From: Bdellovibrionia bacterium
GTDB taxonomy: Bacteria; Bdellovibrionota; Bdellovibrionia; Bdellovibrionales; JAUICD01
DNA length: 64,000 bases
Direction: 5' to 3'
Assembly (NCBI GenBank): GCA_030427965.1
Contig: JAUICD010000001.1
Span: 82,625 to 146,624 of the forward strand
Shown: positions 57,757 to 62,751 of the stretch, piece by piece
Position numbering within the stretch: position 1 is the stretch's first letter
Layout: each line of letters begins with the position of its first letter
The notes under the pieces: model-generated
Told to the model about the DNA's origin: nothing
Databases searched by the model: none
What the model saw: the letters and a program-made list of their open reading frames with translations, nothing else
Translations under genes and position numbers: made by a program

Positions 57757-59256
57757 ATGTTTTTTAGGAGTCTATTCTTGGTCTGTTGCCTTTTGATGTC
57801 AGCAACATCTTTTGGAGCGGACTACATCGTTAAATCAAAACAAGCTGGAAAAGTGAAAAGTTTGAATATGGCAGGCCTTACTGTGCTCGACTTTCACGAG
57901 GTTGGGCAGATTTATAAAGTCGCAATTGATGAAAAAGTGGAACTTGAAGTTCTCACTCGACTTCATCAAGACTCTAACATCGAATACGTTGTGAAGAACT
58001 TTCAACTTCACGCACTTCGGGCCCCATTTAATCCAACGAAACTTAAAGAGCAATGGGCAAATGCAAAGGTGCGAGCTGAAGAAGCTTGGCAAATTGCAGG
58101 GAACCGAGGCTCCAGGGATGTCATGATCGCTGTGATCGACACAGGTGTGGATTACAATCATGAATCTTTAAAAAGCAATGCGGTTCCTGGATATGACTTT
58201 AGAGACAATGACAATGATCCAATGGATGAGACGAGTTCCAAGAACCCAGGCCATGGTACACACTGCTCGGGATCACTTGGCGCAACAGGTGAAGCGGGTG
58301 ATGGTGTTATTGGGTTGAGTCCAGAGGTTTCTATTATGCCGATTCGTTTCTTGGGTGCAGATGGCTCAGGGGATTTGATGGCGGGTATCAAGTCAATTGA
58401 TTATGCAATTGAGAAAAAAGCACAGATTATATCTGCAAGTTGGGGAGCATCTGTTCCAAGGTCACAAGCCACTCCACTTATTGAAGCTGTACAGAGAGCA
58501 GATGATGCGGGAATTATTTTTGTTGCAGCAGCAGCAAACGACGGAAGAAACAACGACACTCGTGATGTATTTCCAGCAAATTCCAAGACTCCAAATATGA
58601 TTGCAGTTGCAGCAAGTGGCCCTCAGGACGAAAAGCCCTCTTGGTCCAATTATGGAACGGCGATGGTGGATCTTGCATCCCCTGGGTTAAATATTATGAG
58701 TACTCTGCCTCAGAACAAGTATGGAAATCTTTCCGGTACTTCTATGGCAACTCCACTTGTCGCTGGGCTTGTAGCACTTCTAAAGGCGCAGAATCCAGAG
58801 TTAACAGGTCGGCAGATTCGTTCTCTTCTTCAAACAACAGGAGCTAAGGTTTCAATTGAAACGGCTTGCAACTGCAGAGTGGACGCTGCCTCTGCGATGA
58901 AGGCCCTCAAAGAAGAGAAGATGTTTATTGCACCAGCGGCGGCGACTGTTCTTCCTAGTGGTACGCTTAACTTTGAAGTTGTAAATGGAAAAGCTCCATT
59001 TAGTTTTTCAACTTCAAACACTGCAGTTGGGGCAATCAATGATTCAGGTCTTTTCACTGCAACGGCAACGGAAGGTGAAACTGTTATTTCGGTAAAAGAT
59101 GTAGATGGACAAACAGTTCAGTCTCTTGCAATTCACGTCAAAGCTCCTGGTGGTGGCGGAGGAGGCGGTGGCGGTGGAGAGTGTCCAGTCCAAGATCCGG
59201 CACTTTGTGAAGCGCTTTGCCAAATTATGCCAGACCTTCCATTTTGTAATAATTGA
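57757..59256 (+). CDS. secreted subtilisin-family (S8) serine protease with Ig-like domain, Gly10 linker and 4-Cys tail
   Basis: Signal peptide. Catalytic triad contexts VIDTGVD, HGTHCSG, SGTSMATP. A BIG2-like segment follows, then ten Gly codons (59149-59178) and ECPVQDPALCEALCQIMPDLPFCNN. Confidence 0.88.
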   Translation: MFFRSLFLVCCLLMSATSFGADYIVKSKQAGKVKSLNMAGLTVLDFHEVGQIYKVAIDEKVELEVLTRLHQDSNIEYVVKNFQLHALRAPFNPTKLKEQWANAKVRAEEAWQIAGNRGSRDVMIAVIDTGVDYNHESLKSNAVPGYDFRDNDNDPMDETSSKNPGHGTHCSGSLGATGEAGDGVIGLSPEVSIMPIRFLGADGSGDLMAGIKSIDYAIEKKAQIISASWGASVPRSQATPLIEAVQRADDAGIIFVAAAANDGRNNDTRDVFPANSKTPNMIAVAASGPQDEKPSWSNYGTAMVDLASPGLNIMSTLPQNKYGNLSGTSMATPLVAGLVALLKAQNPELTGRQIRSLLQTTGAKVSIETACNCRVDAASAMKALKEEKMFIAPAAATVLPSGTLNFEVVNGKAPFSFSTSNTAVGAINDSGLFTATATEGETVISVKDVDGQTVQSLAIHVKAPGGGGGGGGGGECPVQDPALCEALCQIMPDLPFCNN

Positions 59257-59282: not shown

Positions 59283-59304
59283 GGGAGCGTGAGCTCCCTT
59301 TTTT
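59283..59304. terminator. bidirectional rho-independent terminator
   Basis: AAAAAAA-GGGAGC-GTGA-GCTCCC-TTTTTT. It serves the protease gene (+) and the convergent 59303-59995 gene (-). Confidence 0.8.
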
Positions 59305-59995
59305 AATTGGATGGTGTTGTTGTCTTAGGTATGACAAGCGTTTTGATGACGTGGGCGTTTCTGGCTTTATAAGTAAACTTACAACCTGCTAGAGACGCAC
59401 ACTTTTCTAGTCTCGCTCGAGCTTCTTTGAGCTCTTCGGACTCTTCCTTGTCATTGTTAACAACCAAATCTTTGGCGCTAGAGTCTTGAGCGGCTCGAGT
59501 GTCAAGAGTCACAAACCTGAGTTCATCATCGTTATTTTCAAAGTCAAATTCAATGTGTTGAATGTCACTGTCTTTAAGGGAAAGGACGGATTCAATCAAC
59601 ATAAGGAAGGCAAGTTGAAAGACTTGAGAGGGTTTGGCCCAAAAAAGATTTTCTCCTTGGCACTTAAGAGAAATGGTCACCTTGCGTGCGCCAGATTGTC
59701 TTTCGATATAATCTAAAATCGGCATAATAACGGAATCAATGGAGATCGCTTTAGGTCTTTCGTTGATAATGTTGGTTGAAATAAGGGACTTTGCTATAAG
59801 GAGTTCATCTAGTATTTGATCAAATAACTCTTTGAATTGATTCAACTTTTCTTTGGTGGGCTGGGTTGAAAAAAGCGACAGGAGTTTGGAATTGGACTTG
59901 GCTTCTGAAGCAGAAAAAGAGCATTCTTTTAAATGTAGTTCTACACGTTCTAAAGACTCTGTCGCTAAGCTGTTCATCCAATCGATCGAATTCAT
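59303..59995 (-). CDS. hypothetical protein, possibly a degenerate histidine-kinase-like ATPase fold
   Basis: Start at MNSIDWMNSL (ATG 59995). The segment ISIDSVIMPILDYIERQSGARKVTISLKCQGENLFWAKPSQVFQLAFLMLIESV parallels the HK catalytic-domain layout. The N-box Asn and DxGxG are absent (LMLIES; DTRAA) and there is no H-box. Confidence 0.35.
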   Translation of the reverse strand: MNSIDWMNSLATESLERVELHLKECSFSASEAKSNSKLLSLFSTQPTKEKLNQFKELFDQILDELLIAKSLISTNIINERPKAISIDSVIMPILDYIERQSGARKVTISLKCQGENLFWAKPSQVFQLAFLMLIESVLSLKDSDIQHIEFDFENNDDELRFVTLDTRAAQDSSAKDLVVNNDKEESEELKEARARLEKCASLAGCKFTYKARNAHVIKTLVIPKTTTPSN

Positions 59996-60241
59996 GTGTA
60001 AAGTCACCTCAATAAACAAATTCTATTTAATACTCTATTTCTATACAAATGAATTGTTCAATAAGTCTAGTAAAATTGATGATGTCGAGTGAACTCATAG
60101 CGAAAAGAGGCTGTTTTATCGACAAATCAGTTACTGAGAGCTTTAAGGCGGAAAAATTTGCCTAAAACTAAGTAAAGTTGCTTCTGAAAAAAGTCCACTG
60201 CTTAAACTATTTTTGTTTATATGGTGTGTAGTTTTTAAATT

Positions 60242-60937
60242 GTGGAGAAAAATTTGAAATCAGAAGAGTTGCAATTAAAAATCATTCCAACAAGAAATCC
60301 AAAACCAGATTTTTATGAAGATTATACACAGGTGTTCAGTTGTTGGTTTGGAGTTTGGACGGAAACATATCGTGAGTTGAGCGGATCTGATCATTTGTCT
60401 TCAGATGACTTCACGCGCCAGGATGAGGCGCTTGCTCTTTTTTCCAAAGGAAAGTGTTTAGGCATGGTCTTTATGAGAAATGAAAATCTAGATAGCCCAG
60501 CAGTTATTCATGATTCTTACTTTGGTTCTTGGCCAGCATTTTTGGTTAATAGGTTAGCTCGTCATGGATCAAGTATGACAATTGTTAGCTATTTGACAGG
60601 TTCTCAAACTGCACGCGGTAATCCAATTGATGGTAAATTTAAAATGCAAGAAGTTTTGATGGCCCTCTCAGCTCTTCGGTTTTTAGATTTAAAAACTGAT
60701 GTAATGGTGGCAACTCCAAGAGTTGCAGTTGGTTCTGGAAATTCTTGTAAATTGGCAGGTTCTGAAGTCAGTTTCATGGGTAAACAAATGCACGGAGTGG
60801 ATATTGAATGTGTCGAGTTTTTGCCGAATCGGGTTAAGAAAATGAAGTTTTCTGATGTTGTCTACAAACTTTGGAATGAAAGAGTAACTTACGGTAGCAA
60901 TGAACTTAAATACAATTTAGAACTTTTAGGAGGATGA
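60242..60937 (+). CDS. putative GNAT-fold N-acyltransferase (N-acyl amino acid / autoinducer-synthase-like)
   Basis: No ATG start: GTG 60242, or TTG 60254 (6 nt after GGAG). The segment SSDDFTRQDEALALFSKGKCLGMVFMR resembles the D.fD..a.hl.v...g..vGt.Rl core of OlsB/N-acyl-amino-acid synthase/LuxI-like acyltransferases. Weak call. Confidence 0.35.
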   Translation: MEKNLKSEELQLKIIPTRNPKPDFYEDYTQVFSCWFGVWTETYRELSGSDHLSSDDFTRQDEALALFSKGKCLGMVFMRNENLDSPAVIHDSYFGSWPAFLVNRLARHGSSMTIVSYLTGSQTARGNPIDGKFKMQEVLMALSALRFLDLKTDVMVATPRVAVGSGNSCKLAGSEVSFMGKQMHGVDIECVEFLPNRVKKMKFSDVVYKLWNERVTYGSNELKYNLELLGG

Positions 60938-60938
60938 A

Positions 60939-61574
60939 ATGGATAAGGTAAAAGAAGCGGTCAGAGCTGAAATGGATGTAACAGGCCCCAAATTTCTTGG
61001 ATTAAACTGGGAAGATCCAGAAACGTATGGAATTTGGCTGAAGCAAACATATAATATGGTAAATTATTCTACAAGACTTGTGGCTCTTGCAGGTGCGTGG
61101 ACGGATCTTCCATTTGATTTTCTACATGATCGATTTGTTGATCACTCACGAGAAGAGAGAGGGCATCCAATTATGTGTATTCGGGATATGGAGCACTTGG
61201 GTTTCAATGTCGATGCATTTCCGGTTTTGTATGAATCAGAGGCTATGTATCAGTGCCAATATTTTTGGATTATGTGCAAAGACCCGGCATCTTTTTTTGG
61301 ATACACTTTGGCGTTGGAAACACTTGCTATTGAGTTTTGTGATGAAGTTTATGAAAGAGTGTCGAACGCACACGGGAAGAAGAGTGCAACATTTCTAAAA
61401 CTGCATTCAGGAGCTGATCATGAGCATACGGCAAGTGCTTACAAAGCGATTGCACAACTTAACGAAACTCAAATAGTTTCAGCATTAGAAAATCTTAAGT
61501 TGAGTTGCGAAATATATCGCGGAATGTTGGATCGAGTGAGTGAGTTGAAGGGTTCTTTAAAGCTGGCCGTGTAA
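60939..61574 (+). CDS. heme-oxygenase-like (TenA/PqqC/CADD-type) putative diiron redox enzyme
   Basis: Starts 1 nt after the upstream stop. All-helical composition with ligand-like motifs EERGH (aa 72-75), ALETLAIEF (aa 125-133) and HSGADHEH (aa 156-163, H-x3-D-x2-H). Confidence 0.5.
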   Translation: MDKVKEAVRAEMDVTGPKFLGLNWEDPETYGIWLKQTYNMVNYSTRLVALAGAWTDLPFDFLHDRFVDHSREERGHPIMCIRDMEHLGFNVDAFPVLYESEAMYQCQYFWIMCKDPASFFGYTLALETLAIEFCDEVYERVSNAHGKKSATFLKLHSGADHEHTASAYKAIAQLNETQIVSALENLKLSCEIYRGMLDRVSELKGSLKLAV

Positions 61575-61751
61575 GAAGCTATACAATTTGATATGGTGGG
61601 TTTTCAGAATAGAATTTGGTGAGGAGAAATTCTTCAGAATAGGTATCAAGAGCACTTTTTTCTATAACTGCTTTTTCTATAGCGATTGTTGCCACAGGCA
61701 TATTTTTTTTGAAAAGTGGGCCTCCGTAATGGAGGTCCACTTCAAGTTCGA

Positions 61752-62330
61752 TCAAGACAAGAAAGGTGAGCAGGATTCTTTGATTTTATACGGTGGAATC
61801 TTAAATGGTTTCATGTGGTTCCAGGTGCCAGTTTCAATTTGGTGAAACCACTTGCCTAAGTAGGCGATCGTAGAGTCATCGTATGTAAACAGCTCTTGAA
61901 TATCTTTGCAGTACAAAGATTCTAGGTCATAGCTGCTATAGCGGAAATAATTCAGATTTCTAAACAATTGTTTTGCTGAAAAATCGTGTATCTCGATTAC
62001 ATGGTCATTTTCAATGTATTCAAATAAGTCCGAGCTTGGGCGAAGCCCCAGTGACTTAATGCCTTGCCATGTAAATAACTTAGCATCTGACAGAGTGCCA
62101 CCCATTTTAGTTTTTTGGCAAATCTGTAAATAGGATCTTGCAGCATAAAGAGCGGTTATTTTCTCTTTAGGCTTAAGGGCGCTAAAAAATGGTAAATTTT
62201 CATTAAAATAAGGACGTACGTTTATTCCAATTTCTTTAGCAAGACTCGAGATTCCAAGAACCACATTAGAAAAGGCTTCTACTAGGTTATTATGGTCCTC
62301 TCTTTTAGATACGATCATAATCGACGACAT
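61752..62330 (-). CDS. hypothetical protein with PAS-like C-terminal half
   Basis: DHVIEIHDFSAKQLFRNLNYFRYSSYDLESLYCKDIQELF resembles the PAS core pattern (..i.y.N.a...l.gy..eEl.g). No other motif recognised. Confidence 0.35.
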   Translation of the reverse strand: MSSIMIVSKREDHNNLVEAFSNVVLGISSLAKEIGINVRPYFNENLPFFSALKPKEKITALYAARSYLQICQKTKMGGTLSDAKLFTWQGIKSLGLRPSSDLFEYIENDHVIEIHDFSAKQLFRNLNYFRYSSYDLESLYCKDIQELFTYDDSTIAYLGKWFHQIETGTWNHMKPFKIPPYKIKESCSPFLS

Positions 62331-62472
62331 TATTTTAGATTGGTGTGAAGATCAAGGAAATTGGATCTATTTTTCAGATGGTTGTGCTGTGGGTTTCTAT
62401 TCAGATAAAATTAACAAAGCTAAATAGAAATTATTGACATAGGCCGAAGAATATTTAGAAAATGGCAACAAG

Positions 62473-62751
62473 ATGTCAAAACACTTTGAACCACTAGGTC
62501 AGTTTTTAAGAAACGCAAGAATTTCGGCAGATCTCTCGCAAGATGAAGTTGCTCAAACCCTTGGATTTTCTTCTCCTCAGTTTATTTCCAATTGGGAGCG
62601 TGGCAAATGTAAGCCACCTCTTAAGTCGCTTGAGGAGCTTTGTTCCCTCTACAAAATTCAAAAACGTAAGATGATTGAAGAATTCATGAAATGTCATGAG
62701 CATGAGCTCAAATCTTACCTTAAACCCACACGTCGTGCTTCTGGCAACTAA
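62473..62751 (+). CDS. XRE-family helix-turn-helix transcriptional regulator
   Basis: LRNARISADLSQDEVAQTLGFSSPQFISNWERGK is a canonical HTH_3/XRE motif. 92 aa. Confidence 0.8.
   Translation: MSKHFEPLGQFLRNARISADLSQDEVAQTLGFSSPQFISNWERGKCKPPLKSLEELCSLYKIQKRKMIEEFMKCHEHELKSYLKPTRRASGN

What the first reader, a model, noticed from the sequence alone, without database searches (positions are those of the whole stretch)
60242..61574. Two-gene cassette: N-acyltransferase-like protein tightly coupled to a heme-oxygenase-like putative diiron enzyme
**Seen:** the two plus-strand ORFs are separated by 1 nt. The first has no ATG start (GTG 60242 or TTG 60254 after GGAG) and contains SSDDFTRQDEALALFSKGKCLGMVFMR. 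This resembles the acyl-acceptor core of OlsB, N-acyl-amino-acid-synthase and LuxI-type GNAT-fold acyltransferases. The second is all-helical and carries E-x2-H (EERGH), an ExxxxE segment (ALETLAIEF) and H-x3-D-x2-H (HSGADHEH).

**Established:** three His plus three carboxylates on a helical bundle is the ligand set of heme-oxygenase-like diiron oxidases/oxygenases (the family including UndA, CADD, SznF and BesC). These often tailor fatty-acyl or amino-acid-derived metabolites.

**Inference:** this is a minimal pathway making an oxidised or decarboxylated N-acyl compound, possibly a signal or lipid.
Basis: partly seen in the sequence, partly recalled or inferred. Interest (0 to 1): 0.55.

Follow-up and report, generated by a model that had tools for sequence, protein, structure and literature searches.

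The report
Acyltransferase, diiron oxidase, PAS sensor cassette
Predatory bacteria of the phylum Bdellovibrionota carry a conserved, unstudied gene cassette that joins a quorum-signal-synthase-like acyltransferase to an oxygen-activating two-iron enzyme, a small-molecule sensor protein and a regulator, which suggests an undescribed pathway for an oxidised fatty-acyl amino-acid metabolite or signal.

Summary
ORF A (TTG 60254 or GTG 60242 to 60937) and ORF B (60939-61574) are 1 nt apart, and each has a Shine-Dalgarno site.

- **B:** it passes Pfam's threshold for PF14518 (heme-oxygenase-like diiron oxidases, HDO). All six metal ligands are invariant in 47 relatives. It lacks the seventh Glu, as in substrate-triggered HDOs (UndA, BesC).
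- **A:** it matches no curated profile. A confident AlphaFold model best matches AHL synthases and FeeM, but the LuxI signature residues are not conserved. A belongs to a large unannotated GNAT family (about 1000 clusters). One branch sits in oxzAB-like operons, whose acyltransferases are proven N-acyl-amino-acid synthases.
- **Linkage:** A lies next to B in 13 of 13 genomes found through B alone, in high-GC lineages, and as a natural fusion protein.
- **Cassette size:** a convergent helical+PAS protein (C) follows B in 11 of 11 testable genomes, often with an XRE regulator (D). In this window a 5-bp tandem duplication breaks C.

[quoted passage not shown] I found no published description.

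The parts
60254..60937 (+). Gene A: 227-aa GNAT-fold acyltransferase with LuxI/FeeM-like architecture. An alternative GTG start lies at 60242, and the SD site GGAG is at 60244-60247. Family-invariant residues are W31, D51, F53, S88-Y89-F90, R121 and R156.
   Evidence: ORF and sequence. No hit in Pfam, NCBIfam or PDB sequences. Family alignment. AF2 model with pLDDT 89.3 and pTM 0.88. Foldseek top hits are RpaI, BjaI, EsaI, LasI and FeeM. 1019 related clusters.
60939..61574 (+). Gene B: 211-aa heme-oxygenase-like diiron oxidase/oxygenase (HDO, PF14518). The SD site GGAGG is at 60929-60933. Ligand codons are E73 (61155-61157), H76 (61164-61166), E127 (61317-61319), H156 (61404-61406), D160 (61416-61418) and H163 (61425-61427).
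   Evidence: Pfam 36.1 bits against a cutoff of 28.9. 3dde_A at E = 7e-8 (single sequence) and 6e-13 (profile), with ligands aligned. Ligands invariant in 47 sequences and no acidic residue conserved on the aux-alpha2 stretch.
61579..62330 (-). Gene C, convergent with B: an N-terminal helical region plus a PAS domain. It is disrupted here. The reading frame breaks at a 5-bp tandem duplication, leaving a 192-aa N-terminal ORF (61752-62330) and a C-terminal remnant (61579-61749).
   Evidence: Frames. Removing one repeat copy restores a 248-aa protein that scores 346 bits on the C HMM and is 49% identical to P0233. Model of homolog P0233 with pLDDT 86.6. All top 50 Foldseek hits are PAS/LOV domains. 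Present after B in 11 of 11 genomes with flank.
61753..61762 (-). 5-bp tandem duplication, (TCTTG)x2 on the minus strand (CAAGACAAGA on the plus strand), which frameshifts gene C.
   Evidence: DNA alignment with intact homologs shows 5 extra nt. In silico repair. The same lesion is in Logan contig L009.
62473..62751 (+). Gene D: 92-aa XRE-family helix-turn-helix regulator, divergent from C.
   Evidence: Pfam HTH_31 at 6.9e-10 and HTH_3 at 2.5e-9. Adjacent to C in about half of the lineages in three different orientations, including a 4-nt C/D overlap in L026 and L033. Weaker XRE-like neighbours in three more lineages.

Best explanation
This is a self-contained biosynthesis-plus-regulation cassette.

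Step 1 (inferred from fold, family context and neighbours): A, a GNAT with the LuxI/FeeM/TyzA-type architecture, transfers a fatty or short acyl group from acyl-CoA or acyl-ACP to the amino group of an amino acid. The product is an N-acyl amino acid that keeps a free carboxylate.

Step 2 (inferred from family membership and the ligand pattern): B, a heme-oxygenase-like diiron enzyme with the full 3-His/3-carboxylate site but no seventh Glu, binds that carboxylate-bearing product. It uses O2 to oxidise the product, most plausibly by UndA/BesC-like oxidative decarboxylation or desaturation to an enamide or dehydro-amino-acid derivative, or alternatively by hydroxylation.

Step 3 (more speculative): C, a stand-alone helical+PAS protein, binds the product or a precursor. 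Together with the small XRE repressor D it sets transcription of the cassette or of target genes. That would make the module a candidate small-molecule signalling unit of Bdellovibrionota.

In the genome of this window C is knocked out by a 5-bp duplication, while A, B and D are intact.

Shown here: the ORFs, the folds, the ligand conservation, the gene linkage, the fusion and the lesion in C. Inferred: substrates, reaction order, product and the sensing role.
For: B:
- It is in PF14518 above the gathering score.
- Six ligands are invariant in 47 sequences and align with 3dde.
- The published HDO criteria are six ligands on core helices 1-3, with a seventh Glu about 26 residues upstream only in the substrate-independent N-oxygenases (PMC13133933). 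B has Leu at that position and no conserved acidic residue in residues 28-62.

A:
- The model is confident.
- The nearest structures are AHL synthases and FeeM. These include the two structures (FeeM, BjaI) reported as closest to the proven amino-acid N-acyltransferase TyzA (PMC10404671).
- Family member P0083 overlaps a 727-aa ThiF+nitroreductase fusion by 4 nt. That is the oxzAB/trzAS layout, in which the acyltransferase makes N-acyl amino acids from acyl-CoA.
- An acyl-AMP/CoA ligase gene overlaps A in L032.
- A membrane fatty-acid desaturase is coupled to A in L012, L017 and L030.

Coupling of A and B:
- The gap is between -1 and about 60 nt in all loci.
- A is adjacent in 13 of 13 genomes found via B alone.
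- The pair persists where A is only about 20% identical to the window's A, and in genomes of 66-70% GC.
- A natural 469-aa A-B fusion is seen in three samples.

C and D:
- C has a PAS fold.
- C is present in 11 of 11 genomes with flank, with 3' ends that overlap or abut B.
- C and D overlap by 4 nt in two lineages.

A, B and C match no defence or phage family.
Against: - There are no biochemical data and no cultured carrier; all hits are MAGs or metagenomes.
- A shares no significant sequence similarity with any characterised acyltransferase. Profile-profile probability against AHL synthases is only 12-24%.
- I could not compare A directly with OxzA, TyzA or TrzA sequences.
- The acyl acceptor could be an amine other than an amino acid.
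- The order of A and B is unknown.
- The subgroup assignment of B rests on sequence spacing, not on a structural alignment, and no model of B was made.
- D is confidently adjacent in only about half of the lineages.
- No conserved operator or promoter was found.
- C has no output domain, and its N-terminal region has no recognisable fold match.
- C is broken in this very genome, so the sensing branch cannot be essential here.
Confidence: 0.5

Rival explanations
1. Reverse order. B first transforms a free amino acid or another carboxylate, as the HDOs BesC, AetD and SktA do. A then N-acylates the resulting amine, either as a maturation step or as self-protection.
For: Most characterised HDOs act on free amino acids or simple carboxylates (PMC13133933). 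GNATs often acylate pathway end products. Gene order and the fusion order (A then B) do not fix the reaction order.
Against: Related A-family members sit in oxzAB-like operons, where the acyltransferase acts first on proteinogenic amino acids. The recurrent partners of A (acyl-CoA ligase, fatty-acid desaturase) point to the acyl donor side rather than to an unusual amine.
Confidence: 0.15
2. Membrane aminolipid pathway. A is an OlsB/GlsB-like N-acyltransferase that makes an ornithine-, glycine- or other amino-acid-containing lipid, and B hydroxylates or desaturates that lipid. C and D adjust expression to membrane stress. The product would be a structural lipid, not a signal.
For: A has the LuxI/FeeM-type GNAT fold; from my own knowledge, this architecture is also attributed to aminolipid N-acyltransferases. 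A membrane FA_desaturase gene is coupled downstream of A in L012, L017 and L030.
Against: Neither A nor any of 52 superfamily members hits the aminolipid acyltransferase profile (Acetyltransf_5) or any other lipid profile. No O-acyltransferase (OlsA-like) partner is conserved. Both A and B are predicted soluble. A dedicated PAS/XRE pair and patchy distribution are unusual for a housekeeping lipid.
Confidence: 0.15
3. Genuine AHL-type quorum sensing. A is a divergent LuxI that uses SAM plus acyl-ACP or acyl-CoA to make an acyl-homoserine lactone, B modifies the acyl chain or the ring, and C/D replace LuxR.
For: The top structural matches are AHL synthases. The convergent arrangement of synthase and sensor genes with overlapping 3' ends recalls several luxI/luxR pairs (from my own knowledge).
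Against: There is no Autoind_synth profile hit. In the profile-profile alignment the LuxI signature is not kept: E98, S100 and R101 map to V, Y and L, D47 to T, and E42 to S. Only D44 maps to a conserved residue (D51). A lactone product has no free carboxylate to trigger a subgroup-2 HDO.
Confidence: 0.07
4. The genes are neighbours with no shared pathway, or a mobile defence or toxin cassette. For example, A would be a generic acetyltransferase and B a TenA/PqqC-like salvage enzyme.
For: Integrase genes lie 2-4 kb away in three lineages, and an XRE regulator is common in mobile cassettes.
Against: Adjacency holds in every locus across deep divergence, and there is a natural fusion. B keeps the full diiron ligand set; from my own knowledge, TenA and PqqC enzymes are not metal-dependent. 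A, B and C have no PADLOC or PHROG hit.
Confidence: 0.03

Closest known systems
OxzA/OxzB (Pseudoalteromonas rubra), TyzA/B/C and TrzA/TrzS (Mycobacterium tuberculosis): the N-acyl amino acid to acyl-oxazolone pathways
   Same: In both cases a small soluble acyltransferase with a FeeM/BjaI-like fold is encoded immediately next to an O2-dependent oxidative tailoring enzyme that acts on the N-acyl amino acid. A-family member P0083 actually sits in the oxzAB layout. The product class is AHL-like lipids of unknown physiological role.
   Different: In the window the tailoring enzyme is a diiron HDO rather than a flavin nitroreductase plus an ATP-dependent ThiF cyclase, so an oxazolone is not expected. 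A dedicated PAS protein and an XRE regulator are attached. Sequence homology of A to OxzA or TyzA could not be tested.
LuxI-type AHL synthases (LasI, EsaI, BjaI, RpaI) with LuxR receptors
   Same: They are the best structural matches to A (E = 3e-7 to 4e-6, TM 0.5-0.54). Synthase and sensor genes are convergent with overlapping ends. A ligand-binding alpha/beta sensor fold is combined with an HTH.
   Different: A has no Autoind_synth profile hit and does not keep the LuxI signature residues. The sensor is a PAS protein with a separate XRE HTH rather than a LuxR. An extra oxidase is obligatory.
FeeM and related N-acyl amino acid synthases from environmental DNA
   Same: The fold is shared (TM 0.50-0.56), and the predicted chemistry, N-acylation of an amino acid, is the same.
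   Different: There is no significant sequence match: PF21926 reaches E = 0.16 in one member only, and there is no PDB sequence hit. FeeM is ACP-dependent, while A's donor is unknown.
Substrate-triggered HDOs: UndA, BesC, AetD, SktA
   Same: Members of the HDO family share the six-ligand diiron site. These four, like B, lack the seventh aux-alpha2 Glu, which implies that a substrate carboxylate completes the site.
   Different: B has no detectable pairwise sequence similarity to them; only 3dde is found in the PDB. No known HDO takes an N-acyl amino acid, and none is paired or fused with a GNAT.
PDB 3dde (Shewanella denitrificans TenA/THI-4-annotated protein with a heme-oxygenase-like fold)
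   Same: It is the closest solved relative of B (profile E = 6e-13 over about 170 residues), and all six ligand positions are identical.
   Different: It is a structural-genomics entry with no assigned function, so it gives the fold but no chemistry.

Membership tests
HDO (heme-oxygenase-like diiron oxidase/oxygenase; Pfam PF14518) - gene B | Profile match above Pfam's gathering score | tested here: met
   36.1 bits against a cutoff of 28.9, covering residues 33-178. Relatives also carry PF14518.
HDO - gene B | Six conserved metal ligands: E and H on core helix 1, E on core helix 2, HxxxDxxH on core helix 3 (PMC13133933) | tested here: met
   E73, H76, E127, H156, D160 and H163 are invariant in 47 sequences. 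They are kept in distant B proteins of L026, L030, L032 and L031 and align with 3dde.
HDO - gene B | Seven-helix heme-oxygenase-like bundle with the ligands converging | not tested
HDO subgroup 1 (substrate-independent N-oxygenases SznF and RohS) - gene B | Seventh ligand: a Glu on aux helix 2, about 26 residues upstream of the core-helix-1 Glu | tested here: not met
   Position 47 is Leu in 46 of 47 sequences, and no acidic residue is conserved in residues 28-62. The mapping is by spacing only.
HDO - gene B | Binds two Fe (or Fe/Mn) and activates O2 | not testable with these tools
   This needs metal analysis and spectroscopy.
LuxI-type AHL synthase (Pfam Autoind_synth) - gene A | Profile match | tested here: not met
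   There was no Pfam or NCBIfam hit for A or for 52 superfamily members.
LuxI-type AHL synthase - gene A | Conserved signature residues R23, W33, E42, D44, D47, R67, E98, S100 and R101 (1ro5 construct numbering; invariant in the LasI/TofI/BjaI/RpaI alignment) | tested here: not met
   hhalign probability is 12-24%. In the alignment, E98, S100 and R101 map to V112, Y114 and L115, D47 to T54, and E42 to S49. Only D44 maps to an invariant residue, D51.
LuxI-type AHL synthase / FeeM-type N-acyl amino acid synthase - gene A | GNAT-derived alpha/beta/alpha fold of the AHL-synthase type | tested here: met
   The model has pLDDT 89.3. The Foldseek top 10 are RpaI, BjaI, EsaI, LasI and FeeM, with E = 3e-7 to 6e-6 and TM 0.49-0.56.
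FeeM family (Pfam PF21926) - gene A | Profile match | tested here: not met
   There is only one non-significant hit (E = 0.16, 12.2 bits against a cutoff of 27) in the L010 homolog. PDB sequence searches found nothing.
OxzA/TyzA/TrzA-type acyl-CoA:amino acid N-acyltransferases - gene A | Gene adjacent to ThiF and nitroreductase (oxazolone synthetase) genes | tested here: not met
   The window has an HDO in that position. However, A-family member P0083 (profile E = 7.5e-29) does have a 727-aa ThiF+nitroreductase fusion overlapping its stop codon.
OxzA/TyzA/TrzA-type acyltransferases - gene A | Sequence homology to the characterised enzymes | not tested
   No OxzA, TyzA or TrzA sequences were available. 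tblastn against plasmids found nothing, and the paper supplements hold only figures and primers.
PAS domain - gene C | Five-stranded antiparallel sheet flanked by helices (PAS fold) | tested here: met
   The model of homolog P0233 has pLDDT 86.6, with strands and helices in PAS order at residues 107-220. All top 50 Foldseek hits are PAS/LOV domains, with target-normalised TM up to 0.70. No Pfam PAS profile is matched.
XRE-family HTH regulator - gene D | HTH_3 / HTH_31 profile above threshold | tested here: met
   HTH_31 scores 39.5 bits (cutoff 27) and HTH_3 scores 37.5 bits (cutoff 23).
Known anti-phage defence systems (PADLOC) - whole cassette | Any component matching a defence-system model | tested here: not met
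   A, B and the repaired C give no hits, and D gives only generic HTH matches.

The most novel reading that the evidence does not exclude
The cassette is a complete, previously unrecognised cell-cell signalling system of predatory Bdellovibrionota. A LuxI-fold acyltransferase and a diiron oxidase would make a new class of diffusible signal, an oxidatively decarboxylated or desaturated N-acyl amino acid such as an enamide. A split receptor made of a PAS ligand-binding protein (C) and an XRE DNA-binding protein (D) would sense it. This would also be the first HDO shown to act on an N-acyl amino acid. The 5-bp duplication in C would then mark a 'signal-blind' variant.
Probability: 0.2. Interest if true: 0.85.

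Novelty: new variant of a known kind. Interest (0 to 1): 0.6.

Why it matters
If the inference holds, it would matter in four ways.

1. **New HDO substrate class.** It would add N-acyl amino acids to the substrates of the fast-growing HDO enzyme family, and probably a new reaction outcome.
2. **A function for a large unnamed family.** It would assign a function to an acyltransferase family of about 1000 clusters at 50% identity that no Pfam or NCBIfam model covers.
3. **A testable signalling candidate.** It would give a concrete candidate for small-molecule signalling in Bdellovibrionota. I found no described autoinducer synthase for these predators in the searchable literature. The candidate comes with its likely sensor and regulator.
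4. **A compact experimental system.** The natural A-B fusion and the two- to four-gene size make the system easy to express heterologously.

The oxzAB/tyz precedent shows that such N-acyl-amino-acid-derived lipids exist in pathogens and have been linked to survival under oxidative stress.

Tried and rejected
- **Sequence-level assignment of A.** Pfam, NCBIfam and PDB searches found nothing significant, whether run with single sequences, the 23-sequence profile or the 52-sequence profile.
- **LuxI membership.** I rejected it after profile-profile alignment with real AHL-synthase sequences recovered from the PDB.
- **Conserved operator or promoter.** The promoter and terminator scan was no better than shuffles. 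The 11-nt inverted repeat in the window's C-D spacer (62394-62430) is absent from L001 and L004, and no shared repeat lies upstream of A.
- **The upstream 238-aa gene (59303-60019, minus strand) as a histidine-kinase-like part of the module.** It has no Pfam hit and no similarity to the kinases next to the cassette in L004 and L006.
- **Defence-system or phage origin.** A, B and C have no PADLOC or PHROG hits.
- **Direct comparison with OxzA, TyzA or TrzA.** No sequences were obtainable: tblastn against plasmids was empty and the supplements hold only figures and primers.
- **Genome scan with the A alignment.** The alignment was too divergent to give a search pattern, so I used the B alignment instead.
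- **Folding C from locus-derived sequences.** I solved it by registering the same proteins through the cluster look-up.
- **Literature searches.** I found no description of an HDO paired with a GNAT or LuxI-like enzyme, or of this cassette.
Full report
**1. The observation**

- A runs from GTG 60242 or TTG 60254 to the TGA ending at 60937. B runs from ATG 60939 to 61574, so the gap is one nucleotide.
- GGAG (60244-60247) lies 6 nt before the TTG, and GGAGG (60929-60933) lies 5 nt before B's ATG.
- Gene callers on an identical public contig use the TTG start, giving 227 aa. The N-termini of homologs line up with it.
- The quoted peptides are all present.
In 'ExxxxE' only the first Glu (E127) is conserved.

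**2. Gene B**

- B scores 36.1 bits on Pfam PF14518 (Haem_oxygenas_2), above the 28.9-bit gathering score.
- Its only sequence relative in the PDB is 3dde, a structural-genomics entry described as a heme-oxygenase-like fold. The E-value is 7e-8 with the single sequence and 6e-13 with a 47-sequence profile.
- In that alignment the residues E-E-x-G-H, E and H-x3-D-x2-H are identical.
- Across 47 relatives, E72, E73, H76, E127, H156, D160 and H163 are invariant. The same ligands survive in much more distant B proteins (L026, L030, L032, L031).
- A 2026 structure paper on RohS sets out the family definition (PMC13133933):
  - PF14518 is the HDO family.
  - It has a seven-helix bundle and six conserved ligands.
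  - A seventh Glu on auxiliary helix 2, about 26 residues upstream, occurs only in the substrate-independent N-oxygenases SznF and RohS.
  - UndA, BesC and AetD lack it and use the substrate's carboxylate as the seventh ligand.
- B has Leu at the equivalent spacing and no conserved acidic residue in residues 28-62.
- So I place B with the substrate-triggered group. This rests on spacing, not on a structural superposition. I made no model of B, so the geometric convergence of the ligands remains untested.

**3. Gene A**

- A has no hit in Pfam, NCBIfam or PDB sequences, either as a single sequence or as profiles of 23 or 52 sequences.
- The word-indexed search found few relatives (6, then 23 with a profile). 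The exhaustive profile search found 1019 clusters at 50% identity, 495 of them below 1e-30. A therefore belongs to a large family that no curated model covers.
- With the 23-sequence alignment, AlphaFold2 gave a confident alpha/beta/alpha model (pLDDT 89.3, pTM 0.88).
- Foldseek against the PDB ranks the AHL synthases RpaI, BjaI, EsaI and LasI first, then the N-acyl amino acid synthase FeeM. Their E-values are 3e-7 to 6e-6 and TM scores 0.49-0.56. Generic GNATs follow.
- Family membership is another matter.
  - I recovered real LasI, TofI, BjaI and RpaI sequences from PDB alignments and aligned them.
  - I then ran profile-profile comparisons. Probability was 12-24%, and the alignment was colinear over 123-143 columns.
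  - In that alignment the LuxI signature is not kept. The ELSR-motif residues E98, S100 and R101 fall on V, Y and L. D47 falls on T and E42 on S. Only D44 meets an invariant residue of A (D51).
- A has its own signature: W31, W35, S50-D51-x-F53-x-R55, S88-Y89-F90, R121, R156.
- R121...G127 lies in the loop between the fourth strand and the following helix. In GNATs that loop carries the pyrophosphate-binding motif (model topology). This last point is a coarse reading only.

**4. A functional anchor for A**

- One family member, P0083, matches the profile at E = 7.5e-29 and shares the invariant residues. Its stop codon overlaps by 4 nt the start of a 727-aa ThiF+nitroreductase fusion.
- That is the layout of oxzAB in Pseudoalteromonas rubra and trzAS in Mycobacterium tuberculosis. 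It is also the unfused equivalent of tyzA/tyzBC.
- In those systems the upstream acyltransferase (OxzA, TrzA, TyzA) has been shown in vitro to N-acylate Tyr, Phe or Trp from acyl-CoAs. The ThiF/nitroreductase partner then desaturates and cyclises the product to an acyl-oxazolone.
- The TyzA paper reports FeeM (2G0B) and BjaI (5W8C) as TyzA's closest structural homologs. Both are among the top matches to A.
- I could not obtain OxzA, TyzA or TrzA sequences for a direct comparison. The link is therefore by fold and by context, not by demonstrated homology.
- Two other neighbours point to fatty-acyl chemistry:
  - The 3' end of an acyl-AMP/CoA ligase gene overlaps A in L032.
  - A membrane FA_desaturase gene overlaps or directly follows A in L012, L017 and L030.

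**5. Linkage of A and B**

- A scan of one genome per GTDB species with the B profile returned 13 loci, all Bdellovibrionota MAGs.
- Local HMMs found A within 1 kb of B in 13 of 13.
- The pair also occurs where A is only about 20% identical to the window's A (L026, L030).
- It occurs in contigs of 66-70% GC as well (L031, L032).
- The A-B gap ranges from -1 to about 60 nt.
- One superfamily member, P0176 (469 aa), is a natural A-B fusion with all B ligands. It was recovered identically from assemblies of three samples.

**6. The cassette is larger than two genes**

- In every Bdellovibrionota locus with sequence beyond B (11 of 11 from the genome scan, plus all metagenomic loci), a 227-263-aa gene C runs convergently into B. 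The 3' ends overlap or abut.
- C has no Pfam or PDB sequence hit.
- A model of the full-length homolog P0233 (49% identical to the window's repaired C over 242 aa) was confident even with a 7-sequence alignment (pLDDT 86.6).
- That model shows about 100 helical residues followed by a PAS-ordered beta/alpha/beta unit. All top 50 Foldseek hits are PAS or LOV domains, with TM up to 0.70 normalised to the target.
- C has no recognisable output domain.
- A 90-95-aa XRE-type HTH gene D lies next to C in about half of the lineages, in three arrangements:
  - divergent from C (window, L001, L004);
  - upstream on the same strand (L006, L010, L016, L022);
  - downstream with a 4-nt overlap (L026, L033).
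- Three further lineages have weaker XRE-like neighbours.
- Genes outside A-D are not conserved between loci.

**7. State of the cassette in this window**

- A, B and D are intact.
- C is split. The 192-aa ORF at 61752-62330 stops early, and the last 56 residues continue in another frame down to 61579.
- DNA alignment with intact homologs shows five extra nucleotides.
- They are a tandem duplication, (TCTTG)x2, at 61753-61762. Deleting one copy restores a 248-aa protein that matches the C family end to end (346 bits).
- The same lesion is in a Logan contig of run ERR3428547, which may be the same underlying data.
- A 5-bp duplication is not a typical homopolymer error. I therefore read it as a real and probably recent inactivation, with an assembly artefact not excluded.

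**8. Mechanism proposed**

- Shown here: the folds, the ligand set, the linkage, the fusion and the lesion.
- Inferred:
  - A makes an N-acyl amino acid from acyl-CoA or acyl-ACP.
  - B, triggered by that product's free carboxylate, oxidises it with O2. The oxidation would be decarboxylation or desaturation to an enamide or dehydro derivative, or hydroxylation.
- More speculative: C senses the product or a precursor and acts with D on transcription.
- Overall confidence is about 0.5. It is higher for the A-B enzymatic coupling and lower for the sensing role.
- The rivals, given separately with their refuting experiments, are:
  - reversed reaction order;
  - a membrane aminolipid pathway;
  - a true AHL system;
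  - unrelated or defence functions.
- The defence reading found no support in PADLOC or PHROGs.

**9. Comparison with what is known, and novelty**

- The system works like oxzAB/tyzABC, an acyltransferase plus an O2-dependent tailoring enzyme. It looks like a luxI/luxR locus, with a LuxI-fold synthase convergent with a ligand-sensor gene. It is a member of neither.
- B is a member of the HDO family by profile and by ligands.
- A is a GNAT of the AHL-synthase architecture, in a family of its own.
- I found no paper describing an HDO paired or fused with such an acyltransferase, or this cassette. The library lacks most subscription journals, so this is not proof of absence.
- I rate it a new variant of a known kind.

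**10. Limits**

- All carriers are uncultured genomes.
- No chemistry was or could be tested.
- B was not modelled.
- The extent of HDO linkage across the roughly 1000 A-family clusters is unknown, because contexts could be fetched for only a few.

Noticed in passing
window 61753-61762 (minus strand), within gene C at 61579-62330: A 5-bp tandem duplication, (TCTTG)x2, frameshifts the PAS-protein gene. Removing one copy restores a full-length 248-aa protein. It is either a recent inactivation or a reversible slipped-strand switch, and an assembly artefact is not excluded.
   Followed up: yes
L033:5001-6410 (also L034 and L035): A natural single-polypeptide A-B fusion (P0176, 469 aa) is present in assemblies from three samples. 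It is followed by a convergent C gene whose stop overlaps the start of D, and then by a response-regulator gene.
   Followed up: partly
L028:2400-5287 and L029:3153-6040 (72% GC): A distant A-family member overlaps a 727-aa ThiF+nitroreductase fusion. This is the oxzAB/trzAS (acyl-oxazolone) layout, with no HDO and no C gene.
   Followed up: partly
L012:7528-9237, L017:6534 onward, L030:5001-6640: In one sublineage the order is rearranged (B, C, then A), and a membrane fatty-acid desaturase (PF00487) is coupled directly downstream of A.
   Followed up: partly
L032:1-678 (70% GC): The C-terminal part of an acyl-AMP/CoA ligase gene overlaps the start of A by 8 nt, suggesting a dedicated acyl-activating enzyme in that lineage.
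   Followed up: partly
L028:5276-5752 (minus strand) and L032:2118-2624 (minus strand): In the two high-GC loci, convergent 158- and 168-aa proteins with no Pfam match share a G-x-G-F-R-A-A-A-V-R motif. They may be a lineage-specific counterpart of C.
   Followed up: no
L012:9997-10539, L030:7416-7952, L033:9714-11186: Phage-type integrase genes (with an HTH_17 excisionase-like gene in L033) lie 2-4 kb from the cassette in three lineages, and the flanking genes differ in every genome. This hints that the cassette moves as an island.
   Followed up: no
L004:6331-7425, L006:2249-4984, L010:7845-8216, L026:2347-2763, L033:7540-8196: Histidine-kinase or response-regulator genes recur within one to three genes of the cassette in five lineages. 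The window's own upstream gene (59303-60019, minus strand) is unrelated to them and has no Pfam hit.
   Followed up: partly
window 62394-62430 and 62434-62479: The C-D spacer holds an 11-nt inverted repeat (TTTCTATTCAG N15 CTAAATAGAAA) next to divergent promoter-like hexamers. It is not conserved in L001 or L004, and the promoter scan is not above chance.
   Followed up: yes
window 57757-59256 (plus strand): A subtilisin-like S8 peptidase (PF00082 in the identical contig L009) ends in a run of about ten glycines followed by a Cys-rich tail (ECPVQDPALCEALCQIMPDLPFCNN). This may be a sorting or anchoring signal.
   Followed up: no
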